Below are positions 1 to 55,921 of a stretch of DNA of 55,921 bases, one piece after another (within the stretch, counting starts at the first letter, position 1; each line of letters begins with the position of its first letter). The notes beneath the pieces were generated by a model. That model saw only the letters and a program-made list of their open reading frames with translations, did not search any database and had not been told where the DNA came from. Made by a program: the position numbers and the translations under genes. Source of the DNA: a virus (Duplodnaviria; Caudoviricetes); IMG/VR virus record IMGVR_UViG_3300034095_001732, positions 1 to 55,921 of that record; one strand, written 5' to 3'.

Positions 1-127
1 GATCCCGGCGGGTGCGGCGGGTTCATCGCCCCCGACACGACGCCCAACCCGAACGGCCAGACCCTCCGCGAGAAGTGGGAAGGCGCCGTGTTGCAAGGCG
101 AGTTCCTCGCCAAGTCGCTCGGTCAGG
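1..127. repeat. Terminal direct repeat, copy 1 (circular-assembly overlap)
   Basis: Identical to 55795-55921. The 127-nt length is typical of an assembler k-mer overlap. Confidence 0.95.
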
Positions 128-41599: not shown

Positions 41600-42745
41600 T
41601 TAACGATTGGTACGAAGTTGATCACTACGCAGCAGAAGCGCCGCGGCCTCACTGGCCGTTACAGCGCCCTTCAGTTTTAGCTTTTCCCGTTGAGCATCCA
41701 GCGCATTGCGAGCCACCGAGGCGGTCGGAGTGCGCGGAGTCGTGGTGCCAGATGACACCGCCGTCTGATCCCCCGCCGGCTTGGCCGTCGGGATGGTCTT
41801 GGGCTTGGGTTTCGGAGCGGGAGCGTCCGCAGTCTTGGAAGACTTGGTCGCCGTGGTCTGCCGGGCCTTGAGTGCCTTCAGTCCCTCCACCTGCACGCCG
41901 ACAATGAAGTCAGCGTTGGGAAGATCCTGAAGCCACGGGTTGAGCCGGTAGGCTTGGACGGCGGCTTGGTAGTCCTCTGAGTTAGGATCAGCTAGGAACG
42001 GGAACATCTGAACGGCTTGTTGAGATGCCTGTGCCTTGGTGAGGAGAAAGTTCTGCCTCGCCGGGATCTGATCCTCGATCGCGATCTTGGCCTTCCGCAA
42101 CACGTCGCGAACTTGGTCGCGGGTCAGGGTTTGATCCCCCACCGTGACACCTTCGCTAATGTCGTCTCGGGCCAGTTGGTCCTCTGCCCAACGCGCCGCC
42201 TGCTTCGCCTGCTCATGATACTTCTGCAGGGAAGGGAGGTCAGTGTAGTCAGCCAAGGGCATAGTGCCCTTGGGCATCGGGGGTGGGGGGTTTGCCTTCT
42301 CGGTCTCGGCCTTTTTCAAGGTCGCTTCCAAGTTGGCCAGCCTCTCCTCCAACGCCTTGCGCTTCGCCACTTCCTCACTGACGCGTTTCTGGACCTTCTC
42401 GCGGATCCGGGTCTCCTTGTCCGAAGAAGATTTCTGGGAAGGAACGTCCTCCTTCTCCGCTTCCGCCTCGGGTTCAGGGATTTCTTCCCCTTCCGTGGCA
42501 GCCTCGGGTTGGGAGGATTCGGGTGCGGTCTCTGCTGTTTCCGCGGTTGTTTGTGTCGGTTCGGGAGCCGAGGGCTCTTCCGTGGCAGCGTCCTCCGCGG
42601 GAGGGGTTGGCGCCGGTTTGGGCTCCGCCTTTTGCGCGTTCGCAAAGAGCATCGCCGCCGCCTGCGTCAATGATACGTTGCCCGACTTGTCTCCATCACC
42701 AGTATTGGAAGCCGGTGAAGCCGCTTCAGTAGTAGTTTCGTTCAT
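41600..42745 (-). CDS. Capsid scaffolding protein
   Basis: Acidic disordered N-terminus and coiled coil; lies between portal and major capsid. Confidence 0.75.
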   Translation of the reverse strand: MNETTTEAASPASNTGDGDKSGNVSLTQAAAMLFANAQKAEPKPAPTPPAEDAATEEPSAPEPTQTTAETAETAPESSQPEAATEGEEIPEPEAEAEKEDVPSQKSSSDKETRIREKVQKRVSEEVAKRKALEERLANLEATLKKAETEKANPPPPMPKGTMPLADYTDLPSLQKYHEQAKQAARWAEDQLARDDISEGVTVGDQTLTRDQVRDVLRKAKIAIEDQIPARQNFLLTKAQASQQAVQMFPFLADPNSEDYQAAVQAYRLNPWLQDLPNADFIVGVQVEGLKALKARQTTATKSSKTADAPAPKPKPKTIPTAKPAGDQTAVSSGTTTPRTPTASVARNALDAQREKLKLKGAVTASEAAALLLRSDQLRTNR

Positions 42746-42861
42746 CACCAATCATGGCCGGTGAAGCCGCCCGTCCCTAACAAGTTCATCACCAATCAAG
42801 GCCGGTGAAGCCGCCACCTAACCAACTAACATCATCACCATTTATGGCCGGTGAAGCCGCC
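42694..42861 (-). repeat. Four ~29-bp hairpin repeats over the scaffold 5' UTR and start codon
   Basis: CATCACCA-N6-8-GCCGGTGAAGCCGC at 42694, 42743, 42787 and 42833. Confidence 0.9.
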
Positions 42862-51540: not shown

Positions 51541-52035
51541 TCAACCCACGCACTCCGCCAGCCGCGAAGCCTCGGTGCCCCGCAATAGCCTGCGCCGCAC
51601 CGACTTCTCCACCAGCGGTCCCCCAAAGAGGTCACGGCCGCACCGACCGCAGCGGGCGGCGACGCTCTCCACCGGAGCCACCCGACCGCAGCACCGGACG
51701 CCGAGGGGCTCCGCCGGAGGAAGGCGCCTGCGCCGTCGGGGCGTCGGCCCGATGACCAACCGGGCAACGTGTTCCTCCGGCGCGCCGTGGGACCAGAGGA
51801 CAAGCGCCCTCCGCAGGTGCCGGGCGAGGCTCCGCCGGCCAGAGCACCGGCCGCAGCGTGCCGCGCAGTTGCCCACGCCGACAGAGGCGCCGCAGTCGGT
51901 GCAGCGCCAGAGGTGACGGCACCGACGGCGCCAGCGGCTCGCCGGTGTGCCAGCGGTGTGGGCTGCGATGCTTTCCCCCTCGGTCTGCTCCGGCGTTTTC
52001 TCTTCTCTGTTTTTCCCCGTTAGAACAAAAACCAT
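51541..52035 (-). CDS. Possible double zinc-ribbon protein
   Basis: CTDC...CGRC and CCG...CGRC duplication; otherwise Arg-rich and could be spurious. Confidence 0.3.
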   Translation of the reverse strand: MVFVLTGKNREEKTPEQTEGESIAAHTAGTPASRWRRRCRHLWRCTDCGASVGVGNCAARCGRCSGRRSLARHLRRALVLWSHGAPEEHVARLVIGPTPRRRRRLPPAEPLGVRCCGRVAPVESVAARCGRCGRDLFGGPLVEKSVRRRLLRGTEASRLAECVG

Positions 52036-52126
52036 AGCAGCCCACACCGTTGGTCACGGGCCCCGACGGCGACAAGCGGCAACGGCGATTTCAGAGGAGA
52101 ACGTGACGTTTTCCGTAAATTGAGAC

Positions 52127-52157
52127 TTGACCGGCGAACGTGTTTCGCCGATAAGGG
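52127..52157 (+). promoter_or_regulatory. Putative early promoter with a palindromic operator in the spacer
   Basis: TTGACC followed by CGGCGAA-CGTGT-TTCGCCG. Confidence 0.5.
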
Positions 52158-52159
52158 CG

Positions 52160-52870
52160 GCTCAGTTCTTTTCCATTCAACCGCAGCGGGCCAACCGGGC
52201 CCCAAGGCGATGCCGGCGAAATGCCTGCCGCCCGACCCGGACCCAACCCGCCGCGACCCACCGACAGCCGGGGCCCCGAGAAGGCGCCCGGCACCGACCC
52301 GCGACCCCGAGGCTGAGCAGGCCCAGAGGGGGACACGGCGCTGGCGGACCACCGGGAGCACCCGGCGGAGGTGGGGGCCGAATCGATAAGGGGTTGCCGC
52401 CGCGAGAGCGACTGCACCCCGCCCGACTCACTCACCCGTTGCCGACGTAACGTCTGCCGGGGCCCGGGTGGAGACGCGATGCCGACGTAACGTCTGCCGC
52501 GTGATCCCGGGGAGTCCCTCCCGTTGCCGCCGTCGAACGCTGCCGGGAGGTTCCGCCCTCCGCGATGCCGACGAAACGTCTGCCGCAGGGGGAGCCGGAT
52601 GGGCGGGGCGCAGGGTAGCGGACGGCGCCCACGGTCCCCCTGAGAGGGGAGCGGATGGAAGCGGGGAGCGCCCCGCGAGGGTCTCACGCCGTTAGCTCGG
52701 CGGAGAGGCCCGCCGCCTTGACCGTTCCGCCCTCGGCACCGAGGGACGGAGAACGCGCGAATCTCACCCCGACCTGCCGCAATGCCACGGCGGGAAGGAG
52801 TCAATGCAGCCACCGCCGCCATCGCGGCCGGTGCCGGTCCCAAGCCCGGACGCCCACGGCGATGCAGAGG
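52160..52870 (+). ncRNA. Candidate structured non-coding RNA or ssDNA element with six repeated bulged hairpins
   Basis: Covarying stems around a conserved WTGCC/TGC core; further hairpins; no credible ORF. Confidence 0.55.
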
Positions 52871-52879
52871 GACTCCTCG

Positions 52880-53095
52880 ATGACCACGACCACCGCCTAC
52901 AAGTTTGCCGTCGCCTGCAACGCCGATCGCTGGGTGCCCGCCCACGGCGGCACCGAGACCGAGTTCACCGCCCGCACCGGCAAGCGCCTGCTCTACTGCT
53001 ACAACCCGCGCCTCGGCCGCCACGCCTTCCTCGACCTCGGCTCCGACATCATCCTCACCGACGACGAAGCCCTCGTTGCCCTCGGCTTCGTCTGA
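52880..53095 (+). CDS. Hypothetical early protein (71 aa)
   Basis: Strong C-ending codon bias; first early gene. Confidence 0.7.
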   Translation: MTTTTAYKFAVACNADRWVPAHGGTETEFTARTGKRLLYCYNPRLGRHAFLDLGSDIILTDDEALVALGFV

Positions 53096-53119
53096 CCCAA
53101 CCCACAACCCGTTCCCACG

Positions 53120-53251
53120 ATGTACCGCATCCCGCGCCGTCCCACCCTCGCGCAGCAGCTGCTGCGCCTCGCCCTCCTCACCGCCGGCGCCCTCGTGGGC
53201 GTCGGCCTGTTCTGGGGCTTCCTCGTCCTCTGGTTCTCGCTCCCGCTTTGA
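53120..53251 (+). CDS. Small single-TM membrane protein (43 aa)
   Basis: CCCACG-ATG leader; basic N-terminus plus a hydrophobic helix. Confidence 0.65.
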   Translation: MYRIPRRPTLAQQLLRLALLTAGALVGVGLFWGFLVLWFSLPL

Positions 53252-53305
53252 CCGTCCCTTTGTCCGTCAACCTCAACCCAACCGTCTGAAAAACCTGTTC
53301 GTCCT

Positions 53306-55254: not shown

Positions 55255-55921
55255 ATGACCTCGAAAATCAAAATCGAACGCGCCCGCTGGTGGGCGCTCT
55301 CCAACCCGGCCGCCGTGTTTTACGGCAGCCTCGCCACCCACCTCGTCGACGTCCTCGACGAGTCCGTCCCGACCGCTGCCACCGACGGCAAGCGCATCCT
55401 CTGGAACCCCGCGTTTCTGGAGTCGCTCACCGACGAGGAGGTCCGGTTCGTCCTGCTCCACGAGGCCCTGCACTGCGTGTACGGGCACTTCTGGCGCCTG
55501 CCCCTGACCGACGACGGCAACCGCGCCGGCGACTACGCGATCAACCGCATCCTCGCGGGCATCCCCGGCATCTCGATGCCCAAGGGCGGCCTGCTCGACC
55601 CACGCTTCGACGGGCTCGCCGAGGAGGAGATCCTCGCCGCCCTCGGTCGCACGCCGCAGCCCCAGCCGGGCAACGGCAAGCCCTCGCCGCAGCCCGGCAA
55701 GGGCGCCGGCAAGCCGCAGCCCGGCGCCGGCCAGCCCGGCAACGGCAAGCCGCAGCCCGGCAAGGGCGCCGGCAAGCCGCAGCCCGGTGCCTCTGATCCC
55801 GGCGGGTGCGGCGGGTTCATCGCCCCCGACACGACGCCCAACCCGAACGGCCAGACCCTCCGCGAGAAGTGGGAAGGCGCCGTGTTGCAAGGCGAGTTCC
55901 TCGCCAAGTCGCTCGGTCAGG
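55255..55921 (+). CDS. N-terminal part of HExxH metallopeptidase/vWA protein (DUF2201-like), continuing across the join to 699; about 412 aa in total
   Basis: ATG at 55255; TAATDGKRILWNP...VLLHEALHCVYGH (HExxH); Pro/Gly/Gln linker; in frame with position 1. Confidence 0.85.
   Translation, partial: MTSKIKIERARWWALSNPAAVFYGSLATHLVDVLDESVPTAATDGKRILWNPAFLESLTDEEVRFVLLHEALHCVYGHFWRLPLTDDGNRAGDYAINRILAGIPGISMPKGGLLDPRFDGLAEEEILAALGRTPQPQPGNGKPSPQPGKGAGKPQPGAGQPGNGKPQPGKGAGKPQPGASDPGGCGGFIAPDTTPNPNGQTLREKWEGAVLQGEFLAKSLGQ
55795..55921. repeat. Terminal direct repeat, copy 2
   Basis: Identical to 1-127. Confidence 0.95.

What the first reader, a model, noticed from the sequence alone, without database searches (positions are those of the whole stretch)
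52206..52586. Six-unit array of covarying bulged hairpins (WUGCC/UGC core) in the pre-early non-coding region
Seen in sequence: six units share the form outer stem-[A/T]TGCC-inner hairpin-TGC-outer stem'. A 52206 GGCG ATGCC GGCG AAA TGCC TGC CGCC. B 52390 GGGG TTGCC GCCGC GAGA GCGAC TGC A CCCC. C 52435 CCCG TTGCC GACG TAA CGTC TGC CGGG. D 52474 ACGCG ATGCC GACG TAA CGTC TGC CGCGT. E 52517 CCTCCCG TTGCC GCCGT CGA ACGC TGC CGGGAGG. F 52562 GCG ATGCC GACG AAA CGTC TGC CGC. The outer stems differ in sequence yet always pair, the inner stem shows compensatory change (GACG/CGTC to GGCG/TGCC), and the core is invariant. That pattern points to selection on a single-stranded structure rather than simple duplication. 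Inference: a multivalent protein-binding RNA (a CsrB-like sponge or decoy against a host regulator or defence protein, or an antitermination element) made from the TTGACC promoter at 52127 as the first early transcript. An alternative is ssDNA hairpins read during injection or replication. I do not recognise it as a known family.
Basis: partly seen in the sequence, partly recalled or inferred. Interest (0 to 1): 0.85.

Follow-up and report, generated by a model that had tools for sequence, protein, structure and literature searches.

The report
Hairpin modules in ribozyme-cut phage RNA
The repeated hairpins are real and conserved, and they are modules of a roughly 630-base folded non-coding RNA at the front of a lake phage's early genes, probably cut free by a self-cleaving ribozyme; what the hairpins bind is unknown.

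Summary
A, C, D, E and F are one motif: outer stem, WU bulge, G-C, C-G, C.U mismatch, 4-bp stem, triloop. A model built from 39 distinct copies finds only these five in the 55.9-kb window (30.8-49.3 bits; next best 13.9). Unit B does not match. Comparative data pair it with the stretch after unit F, closing a loop that holds C-F.

Fourteen other contigs (one viral, 13 metagenomic) carry the motif. Outer and inner stems change in a compensatory way, and complete leaders hold 3 to 7 copies.

The array is part of a conserved non-coding leader of about 750 nt. The leader ends in a below-threshold but full-length twister-P1 ribozyme match (52798-52875, + strand), present in 9 of 9 relatives tested. 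This points to a + sense RNA of about 630 nt released before the first gene.

Five complete, more distant relatives lack both hairpins and twister. No Rfam family matches the hairpins.

The RNA reading is well supported. Multivalent protein binding (sponge or decoy) is an inference, and no partner was found.

The scan had already noted the twister-released RNA on a relative's DNA, and similar leader-plus-twister layouts in other lake phages.

The parts
52127..52155 (+). Conserved promoter-like block: TTGACC, 17 nt, GATAAG
   Evidence: Sequence. Conserved in the relatives whose contigs reach it (alignment A1). Does not pass the strict sigma-70 scan.
52164..52176 (+). T-rich island (GUUCUUU core), boxA-like, at the predicted 5' end of the leader
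   Evidence: G52165, T52167 and T52169-52171 are invariant in 10 of 10 leaders. Resembles the rrn BoxA 12-mer quoted in PMC3177189 (passages). The 7-mer alone is not rarer than chance in the window: 6 found, 7.6 expected. This is a lead, not a finding.
52176..52802 (+). Predicted released non-coding RNA (about 627 nt), from the candidate 5' end to the twister cut
   Evidence: 5' end from a single RNA-library contig. 3' end from the twister match. The fold has covariation. + strand z -2.06, - strand z -0.23.
52182..52255 (+). Domain that carries unit A: two helices (52182-52190 with 52247-52255; 52193-52199 with 52236-52242) below the unit A hairpin
   Evidence: RNAalifold helices 3 and 4. Helix 3 has 4 of 7 pairs changed on both sides; helix 4 has 2 of 7.
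52206..52232 (+). Hairpin unit A
   Evidence: R1 46.8 bits. Inner stem GGCG/UGCC with a G.U pair.
52391..52427 (+). 'Unit B': 5' strand of a long-range closing helix that pairs with 52598-52630. A local hairpin is also possible.
   Evidence: No R1 match. Helices 14 and 15: 28 pairs, 10 changed on both sides, 96-98% paired. The local fold shows no covariation.
52435..52461 (+). Hairpin unit C
   Evidence: R1 43.6 bits.
52474..52502 (+). Hairpin unit D
   Evidence: R1 49.2 bits.
52517..52550 (+). Hairpin unit E: variant with a 12-nt inner part, a bulged C and a 7-bp outer stem
   Evidence: R1 30.8 bits. The identical variant occurs in L044, L050, L051 and L069.
52557..52592 (+). Hairpin unit F with extended outer stem (core 52562-52586)
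   Evidence: R1 49.3 bits. Helix 19.
52598..52630 (+). 3' strand of the closing helix
52632..52751 (+). 3' domain: four hairpins (52632-52653, 52661-52676, 52679-52711, 52725-52751), largely invariant in sequence
   Evidence: Helices 20-23. Helices 20 and 21 never vary. Helix 22 has 6 of 8 pairs changed on both sides; helix 23 has 4 of 11.
52774..52793 (+). Hairpin with invariant AAUGCCA loop and covarying stem
   Evidence: ATGCCAC is invariant in 10 of 10 leaders. The stems were read by eye and were not counted with a tool.
52798..52875 (+). Twister-P1-like self-cleaving ribozyme, predicted cut between C52802 and A52803
   Evidence: RF03160 at 45.2 bits (gathering score 67.2), E 1.5e-8, model positions 1-68 of 68. 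Found in 9 of 9 relatives at 37.5-47.8 bits. P1 has 3 of 5 pairs changed on both sides.
52880..53095 (+). First gene after the leader (71 aa, no family)
   Evidence: The first gene differs among relatives.

Best explanation
The hairpins are repeated modules of a + sense non-coding RNA of about 630 nt, the leader of the phage's rightward (presumably early) operon.

The host RNA polymerase starts near 52160-52176. The RNA folds into a scaffold. Unit A sits on its own domain. Units C-F sit in a loop closed by a helix of about 28 bp. An invariant 3' domain follows. A twister-type ribozyme then cuts between 52802 and 52803, freeing the RNA from the message.

Each hairpin shows the same surface: the WU bulge, the G-C and C-G pairs, the C.U mismatch and an A-ended triloop. 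The scaffold displays 3 to 7 copies of it.

I infer that these copies are binding sites for one protein, more likely a host protein than a phage one, which the RNA titrates or recruits at the start of infection.

Shown: the motif, its conservation and covariation, the surrounding fold, and the ribozyme match.
Inferred: transcription, self-cleavage, release, and protein binding.
For: - The motif is real and occurs only here.
- It is kept by compensatory change in 39 distinct copies out of 55 found in 11 loci.
- The bulge, mismatch and flanking pairs are invariant or nearly so, while the outer stems vary freely. That is the usual signature of a recognised surface.
- Complete leaders hold 3, 5 or 7 copies, and extra copies sit at different places in the scaffold: after unit A in L024, and before the twister in L018 and L022. 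This fits dosage-type modules.
- The whole-leader fold is 95.9% paired against 88.0% shuffled, with 53 of 181 pairs changed on both sides against 29.3, and a covariation score of 0.242 against 0.110 (0 of 500 shuffles as high); slid partners give 0.036-0.054.
- The strand is +: z -2.06 against -0.23; 13 G.U cells against 6 A.C cells out of 407.
- A twister is present on the + strand in the window and in 9 of 9 relatives.
- A ribozyme cut argues that the leader acts after release, not only in cis.
- Spacings of 40, 45 and 41 nt put the units in different reading frames, so no protein repeat explains them.
- One contig of a metatranscriptome library equals 52176-52298 exactly and is flanked by adapters. 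This is a weak hint only, because DNA can be present in such a library.
- The gene next to the leader differs among relatives. The one basic zinc-ribbon protein encoded beside it is absent from a complete array-bearing genome. This points away from a dedicated phage partner.
Against: - No binding partner was identified and the host is unknown.
- The whole-leader structure was predicted from the same alignment on which it was counted, which favours it. The sequences form only two or three lineages.
- The twister match is below Rfam's gathering score in every case (37.5-47.8 against 67.2), its usual UAAA stretch is not matched in the window, and cleavage is untested.
- Transcription rests on one short contig.
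- No canonical sigma-70 promoter was found.
- The motif could equally serve RNA-RNA contacts.
- A boxA-like element at the 5' end fits a cis-acting leader.
- The motif was found with an exact-core pattern, so relatives with a changed core would have been missed.
Confidence: 0.45

Rival explanations
1. RNA-only architecture. The hairpins are building blocks of tertiary or quaternary RNA structure: the A-ended triloop of one unit docks on the bulge/mismatch of another. They would help the 630-nt RNA fold or multimerise, as large ornate RNAs do, and no protein would read them.
For: - Each unit has both an A-rich loop and a conserved asymmetric internal loop.
- The units are embedded in a large fold with long-range helices and an invariant 3' domain.
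- GOLLD, ROOL and OLE RNAs form RNA-only homo-oligomers (PMC12286853, abstract seen).
Against: - Copy number (3-7) and position vary among close relatives. This is unexpected for a precise architecture.
- The middle loop base varies: AAA 17, ACA 16, UAA 3, UGA 1 of 37.
- No GOLLD or ROOL match in Rfam.
- No tool here models RNA tertiary contacts.
Confidence: 0.17
2. Cis-acting leader elements. The hairpins, together with the boxA-like element, act on the transcribing polymerase or on the message itself (nut-like antitermination, pausing, or protection from nucleases). No released RNA has a job of its own.
For: - Position at the head of a + strand operon that runs from 52880 through the record's join to about 15.3 kb.
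- An invariant boxA-like island lies about 30 nt before unit A.
Against: - The ribozyme would detach the leader from the transcript.
- Three to seven copies inside a closed scaffold are not needed for a nut site.
- The loops are triloops, not boxB-type pentaloops.
- No arginine-rich N-like gene is evident next to the leader.
- The motif is not repeated ahead of any other operon.
- The boxA-like 7-mer is not rarer than chance by itself.
Confidence: 0.18
3. Mimic of a specific host RNA: a decoy for a CRISPR repeat-binding protein (an RNA anti-CRISPR) or for a type III toxin (a pseudo-antitoxin). This is a special case of the decoy idea.
For: - Phages are reported to encode repeat-mimicking RNAs (PMC10651486, abstract seen).
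- The array lies in an accessory position and is absent from more distant relatives.
- One distant relative carries 11 copies of a 45-nt tandem repeat in the same neighbourhood (L218).
Against: - The outer stems differ from copy to copy and the linkers are unrelated. The period is irregular: 229, 40, 45 and 41 nt. CRISPR repeats and type III antitoxin arrays are near-identical units at a fixed period (from my own knowledge).
- The 89 bacterial genome contigs that match the core hold one copy each, with no array.
- The host is unknown, so its repeats cannot be compared.
Confidence: 0.07
4. Single-stranded or cruciform DNA signals: N4-type hairpin promoters, a replication origin, or a packaging site read on DNA.
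For: - The hairpins have a short stem and a 3-nt loop, as N4 early promoters do (PMC4496689, passages).
- They lie in a long non-coding region next to the early genes.
- The phage has a primase-helicase that needs an origin.
Against: - No virion RNA polymerase was detected. The 3045-aa protein has no Pfam family, no match to any solved chain at E up to 1, and only a 'virion structural protein' PHROG.
- The fold favours the + strand, which is the non-template strand for the rightward genes.
- 16 of 37 loops have C, not a purine, at the centre.
- The hairpins sit inside an RNA-type fold that ends in a ribozyme.
- Five complete, more distant relatives lack the motif. A core cis-site would more likely be kept, though such sites also drift.
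Confidence: 0.05

Closest known systems
Multi-site sponge RNAs such as CsrB/RsmZ (from my own knowledge)
   Same: One non-coding RNA displays several copies of one small hairpin, and the copy number varies among relatives.
   Different: CsrA-type sites carry GGA in the loop. Here the loops are AAA, ACA or UAA, and the conserved part is a bulge plus a C.U mismatch in the stem. No partner is known. The RNA is phage-encoded and ribozyme-processed.
Twister self-cleaving ribozyme, type P1 (Rfam RF03160)
   Same: The 78 nt after the array match the whole model, including its most conserved stretch, on the same strand, in the window and in 9 of 9 relatives.
   Different: This concerns the neighbour of the array, not the hairpins. 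Scores are below the gathering score and activity is untested.
Phage early leaders cut from the message
   Same: The order promoter, boxA-like element, untranslated leader, then a cut just before the first gene.
   Different: The leader here is about 630 nt, conserved, has a covarying fold and a repeated hairpin motif, and uses a ribozyme rather than RNase III.
Large ornate RNAs GOLLD and ROOL (PMC12286853, abstract)
   Same: Large (600 nt or more), intricately folded RNAs of unknown function. Their link with phages is from my own knowledge.
   Different: No Rfam match. Those RNAs have no repeated bulged hairpin module or 3' ribozyme that I know of.
N4 virion-RNA-polymerase hairpin promoters (PMC4496689, passages)
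   Same: Short hairpin with a 3-nt loop, with conserved and free stem positions, at the head of the early genes.
   Different: No such polymerase was detected. The folded strand is the wrong one for the downstream genes. The centre of the loop is often C. The hairpins are embedded in an RNA fold.
RNA anti-CRISPRs (PMC10651486, abstract)
   Same: Phage-encoded hairpin RNAs proposed here, as there, to occupy a host RNA-binding protein.
   Different: Racrs copy a CRISPR repeat. Here the stems vary between copies and no matching repeat is known.

Membership tests
Any Rfam 15 family (for the hairpins) | A covariance-model match over the hairpin array | tested here: not met
   Gathering threshold: 0 matches in the whole window. 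At E up to 10 over 51900-52950, only chance-level microRNA and frameshift-site hits touch the array.
Twister-P1 ribozyme (RF03160), element next to the array | Score at or above the gathering score of 67.2 bits | tested here: not met
   45.2 bits in the window and 37.5-47.8 bits in 9 relatives.
Twister-P1 ribozyme (RF03160), element next to the array | Full-length match with the conserved core and paired stems | tested here: met
   Model positions 1-68 of 68, E 1.5e-8, with the GCCGGUCCCAAGCCCGG stretch identical to the consensus. P1 covaries: 3 of 5 pairs changed on both sides.
Twister-P1 ribozyme (RF03160), element next to the array | Self-cleavage at the predicted site | not testable with these tools
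   Needs an in vitro transcript.
N4-type ssDNA hairpin promoters | A virion-packaged single-subunit RNA polymerase in the phage | tested here: not met
   The 3045-aa ORF has no Pfam family, no PDB chain at E up to 1, and only a 'virion structural protein' PHROG. A very divergent enzyme cannot be excluded.
N4-type ssDNA hairpin promoters | Hairpin formed on the template strand of the genes it drives | tested here: not met
   The fold favours the + strand, which is the coding strand of the downstream genes.
N4-type ssDNA hairpin promoters | Purine at the centre of the 3-nt loop (PMC4496689, passages) | tested here: not met
   On the + strand, 16 of 37 loops are ACA. On the - strand the centre is T or G.
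CsrB/RsmZ-type sponge | GGA motifs in the hairpin loops (recalled) | tested here: not met
   Loops are AAA 17, ACA 16, UAA 3, UGA 1 of 37.
Lambda-type nut site | boxA element upstream of the hairpin | tested here: inconclusive
   An invariant GUUCUUU island at 52165-52171 resembles the BoxA quoted in PMC3177189. The 7-mer is no rarer than chance in the window.
Lambda-type nut site | boxB hairpin with a pentaloop, plus an arginine-rich N-like protein (recalled) | tested here: not met
   The loops are triloops closed by G-C or G.U. Ten neighbouring ORFs have no Pfam family. N-like proteins are hard to detect by sequence.
Type III toxin-antitoxin RNA array (ToxI-like) | Near-identical tandem units at a fixed period (recalled) | tested here: not met
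   Start-to-start spacings are 229, 40, 45 and 41 nt, with unrelated linkers and differing outer stems.
RNA anti-CRISPR (repeat mimic) | Sequence likeness to a CRISPR repeat of the host | not testable with these tools
   The host is unknown. The core pattern finds only single copies in 89 bacterial genome contigs.

The most novel reading that the evidence does not exclude
A new class of phage non-coding RNA: a ribozyme-released scaffold of about 630 nt, made first in infection, that displays a variable number (3-7) of one bulged hairpin to capture a host RNA-binding protein. The target could be a defence nuclease, a regulator or a processing enzyme. This would be an RNA counterpart of the protein 'sponges' that phages use against host immunity.
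Probability: 0.3. Interest if true: 0.85.

Novelty: new variant of a known kind. Interest (0 to 1): 0.68.

Why it matters
If the reading holds, this is a compact natural example of a multivalent RNA display scaffold whose release is timed by a self-cleaving ribozyme.

It would give a concrete biological role to a bacterial or phage twister ribozyme. A review states that the roles of such ribozymes are largely unknown (PMC6765202, passages).

It would also add an RNA-based way for phages to handle host proteins.

The hairpin is small and sharply defined, so it makes a ready bait for finding its partner. The 15 natural variants already show which positions may change.

Tried and rejected
- My first pattern had the wrong spacing and missed the units. 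One search corrected it.
- BLAST of 51900-53300 against 50,697 phage records found no match.
- The viral-contig scans found only the one relative. The 12 other contigs hold single copies without flanking stems.
- In the metagenome scan, 86 of 99 loci are single chance or coding hits. In the genome scan, all 89 are single hits. So no array was found in any bacterial genome.
- Coding explanation: rejected. The units fall in different frames and the stems vary in a compensatory way.
- Virion RNA polymerase: looked for and not found.
- Phage partner by linkage: the zinc-ribbon, arginine-rich protein at 51541-52047(-) is real. It is 50-95% identical in 5 of 10 near loci searched. It is absent from 4 array-bearing loci (L002/L003 counted once) and from the complete genome behind L002, where the tool warns that an empty answer proves little. 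I therefore rejected it as an obligatory partner.
- Host: the Atlas look-up gave only viral clusters. There are no tRNA genes.
- More distant relatives (ATPase 55-71% identical): 17 loci gave one marginal R1 hit at 19.9 bits. Rfam was run on 7 of the 17 and found no twister. Five complete genomes gave no convincing hairpin and no twister. In one search the control genomes were silent too, so that blank is weak.
- Leader BLAST against the 17 loci gave only two 14-nt chance hits.
- Read laying: all runs were contigs. The RNA run covers only 52176-52298, and the rest of the leader has no RNA cover, which shows nothing either way. No ends or joints bearing on the array were seen.
- Strict sigma-70 scan: none found.
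- Literature searches turned up no description of this hairpin array or of a twister-released phage leader of this kind. I saw listings and abstracts only. Supplements are closed and were not consulted.
Full report
WHAT THE WINDOW IS. The window is a complete 55.9-kb virus record with about 63% G+C.
- It has an SU10-type capsid protein and a large terminase, and its structural genes lie on the - strand.
- On the + strand it has a primase-helicase, a DUF2800 nuclease, a family A DNA polymerase and an SNF2 helicase.
- The record's 127-bp terminal repeat lies inside a gene that spans the join, so it is an assembly overlap and the true ends are unknown.
- The DNA occurs in many lake-water metagenome runs. 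Nineteen runs hold at least 80% of the sampled words, and 11 of them may be the source. Three that I laid carry the whole stretch in one contig.

THE OBSERVATION.
- The core pattern is strongly over-represented: 9 matches against 1.53 expected, with 0 of 100 shuffles as high. The four exact matches are units A, C, D and F.
- Each unit is one long imperfect hairpin: a variable outer stem, a two-base bulge (AU or UU) on the 5' side, G-C, C-G, a C.U mismatch, a 4-bp stem and a 3-nt loop.

RELATIVES.
- One viral contig has the homologous array (L002/L003; its AAA ATPase is 76% identical).
- A metagenome scan with the exact core gave 99 loci. Thirteen of them belong to the family: L018, L022, L024, L044, L050, L051, L052, L054, L056, L069, L071, L072 and L101. 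The other 86 are single hits without an array.
- From 11 loci I collected 55 units, of which 39 are distinct. L054, L056, L072 and L101 were found later and are not in that set.

THE HAIRPIN IS SELECTED AS A FOLD. On the 39 distinct units (A2):
- The three pairs next to the bulge and the inner stem are paired in nearly all copies and change on both sides: 6-33 is CG 17, GC 14, UA 3, UG 3; 7-32 is GC 34, CG 3, GU 2; 8-31 is CG 37, UA 2; 16-24 is AU 31, GC 6; 18-22 is GC 31, GU 6.
- The covariation score is 0.227 against 0.107 in shuffles (0 of 500 as high) and 0.051-0.109 with slid partners.
- The C.U mismatch is kept in 39 of 39. The bulge is AU in 35, UU in 3 and CU in 1. Of the 37 regular units the loops are AAA 17, ACA 16, UAA 3 and UGA 1.
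- The copies descend from one another, so these are not 39 independent events. Several distinct stem versions do exist, such as GGCG/CGCC, CCGCG/CGCGG, GCGUG/CACGU and CUGCG/CGCAG.
- A model built from A2 finds only A, C, D, E and F in the whole window, at 30.8-49.3 bits. The next best scores 13.9 bits. So the motif is not a promoter or nut-like site repeated around the genome.

UNIT B. B is not found by the model.
- It can fold locally (91% of cells paired), but that fold does not covary: 0.044 against 0.042, with 190 of 500 shuffles as high.
- RNAalifold on ten aligned leaders instead pairs 52391-52427 with 52598-52630. That is 28 pairs, 10 of them changed on both sides, 96-98% paired.
- This helix closes a loop from which units C, D, E and F project. 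The single-sequence minimum-energy fold recovers the same helix.
- B does keep the GCC/UGC pairs and the C.U mismatch, so it may be a decayed unit, or the two folds may alternate.

THE ARRAY IS PART OF A LARGER CONSERVED RNA-LIKE REGION. The stretch from the TTGACC block (52127) to the first start codon (52880) is conserved in all ten aligned leaders. It has long invariant blocks and indels that are not multiples of three.
- The predicted fold has 181 pairs in 28 helices.
- 95.9% of cells are paired against 88.0% in shuffles.
- 53 pairs are changed on both sides against 29.3.
- The covariation score is 0.242 against 0.110 (0 of 500 as high), and slid partners give 0.036-0.054.
- The structure was predicted on the same alignment, which favours it, and the ten sequences form few lineages.
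- Unit A sits on two further helices (52182-52190 with 52247-52255; 52193-52199 with 52236-52242).
- The 3' domain has four hairpins, two of them invariant and two covarying.
- A last hairpin carries an invariant AAUGCCA loop. I read this one by eye.

THE RIBOZYME. Rfam finds nothing at the gathering threshold.
- In E-value mode it finds a full-length twister-P1 match at 52798-52875 on the + strand: 45.2 bits against a gathering score of 67.2, E 1.5e-8, model positions 1-68 of 68. The most conserved stretch of the family is identical to the consensus.
- The same match is present, on the strand of the hairpins, in 9 of 9 relatives that include this part, at 37.5-47.8 bits. Its P1 stem covaries.
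- The predicted cut is between C52802 and A52803, 77 nt before the first start codon.
- A review notes that bacterial self-cleaving ribozymes often lie near phage genes and that their roles are mostly unknown (PMC6765202, passages).
- A first-stage note on another genome, by its coordinates probably the L002 contig, had already proposed a roughly 680-nt RNA released by the twister (e1-6309802).
- Follow-up notes describe leader-plus-twister layouts in other lake phages. These are AI notes. I checked the first claim myself on this window and its relatives.

WHICH STRAND, AND RNA OR DNA.
- The + strand of 52176-52802 folds better than its shuffles (z -2.06, 0 of 20 as good). The - strand does not (z -0.23, 7 of 20).
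- Within the units there are 13 G.U cells against 6 A.C cells out of 407.
- The ribozyme and the downstream genes are on the + strand.
- One contig of a metatranscriptome library equals 52176-52298 with no differences and is flanked by adapter sequence. It hints at an RNA with a 5' end at 52176, but DNA can contaminate such libraries and it is a single contig.
- The promoter is uncertain. TTGACC-17-GATAAG is conserved, but no site passes the strict scan.
- Just downstream lies an invariant GUUCUUU island that resembles BoxA (PMC3177189, passages). The 7-mer alone is not rarer than chance.

DISTRIBUTION.
- The ATPase next to the leader has 304 homologues at E up to 1e-10 among the candidates scored.
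- Seventeen viral loci with 55-71% identical ATPases gave one marginal hairpin hit at 19.9 bits.
- Rfam on 7 of the 17 gave no twister.
- Five complete genomes of this wider group gave no convincing hairpin and no twister. The control genomes were also silent for the twister.
- Their equivalent regions hold other things: short tandem repeats, an AT-rich non-coding stretch and, in L218, eleven 45-nt tandem repeats.
- The module is thus an accessory of a narrow clade. However, my collection of that clade rests on an exact-core pattern.

MECHANISM. I commit to a released, trans-acting RNA whose repeated hairpins are binding sites for one protein. The reasons are:
- an invariant, asymmetric surface on freely varying stems;
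- a copy number that changes (3, 5 or 7 in complete leaders), with extra copies inserted at different scaffold positions;
- detachment from the message by the ribozyme;
- no linked phage partner. The first gene differs among relatives, and the basic double zinc-ribbon protein encoded divergently at 51541-52047 is missing from four array-bearing loci and from one complete array-bearing genome.

None of this shows binding. The rivals are in the Rival explanations section: RNA-only architecture, cis-acting leader function, mimicry of a specific host RNA, and DNA-level signals. The N4-type promoter idea fails three of its defining features as far as they can be tested.

LIMITS.
- The host is unknown.
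- No raw RNA reads were available.
- Supplementary files were not consulted.

Noticed in passing
window 52798-52875 (+): Twister-P1-like ribozyme just before the first gene of the + strand operon. It scores below the Rfam threshold but matches the full model, and it is conserved in 9 of 9 relatives.
   Followed up: yes
window 51541-52047 (-): Real gene for a basic 168-aa protein with two CxxC...CxxC zinc-ribbon motifs and arginine runs, transcribed away from the leader. It is 50-95% identical in L050, L018, L069, L052 and L056, absent from L002, L071, L022 and L101, and has no Pfam family.
   Followed up: partly
window 51950-51974 and 52029-52053: A 25-nt inverted repeat (88% complementary) around a 54-nt pyrimidine-rich loop, just upstream of the promoter-like block. 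The L002 relative has a different inverted repeat at the same place (L002:2740-2860), so the structure is kept but not the sequence.
   Followed up: no
window 52164-52176 (+): Invariant T-rich, boxA-like island at the predicted start of the leader.
   Followed up: partly
window 42694-42861 (-): Four copies of another hairpin-like unit (GGCGGCUUCACCGGCC...UGGUGAUGA) at about 45-nt spacing around the start of the gene at 41600-42751. The motif is unrelated to the one studied here.
   Followed up: no
L218:40-540: Eleven tandem 45-nt repeats ahead of an HNH-like ORF in a more distant relative, in the same general neighbourhood upstream of the early genes. This could be another RNA array.
   Followed up: no
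L211:1-260 and L219:1990-2340: Runs of 7- to 8-nt tandem repeats upstream of the early genes in distant relatives. They may mark genome ends or protein-binding iterons.
   Followed up: no
window 1-127 and 55795-55921: The 127-bp 'direct terminal repeat' lies inside a gene that spans the join. It is therefore an assembly overlap and not evidence of physical ends.
   Followed up: partly
window 52610-52680 (+): A block of the leader (GCAGGGUAGCGGA ... GAGCGGAUGGAAGCGGGGAG) is almost invariant across phages whose proteins are only about 75% identical. It is much more conserved than the genes, and no family matches it.
   Followed up: partly
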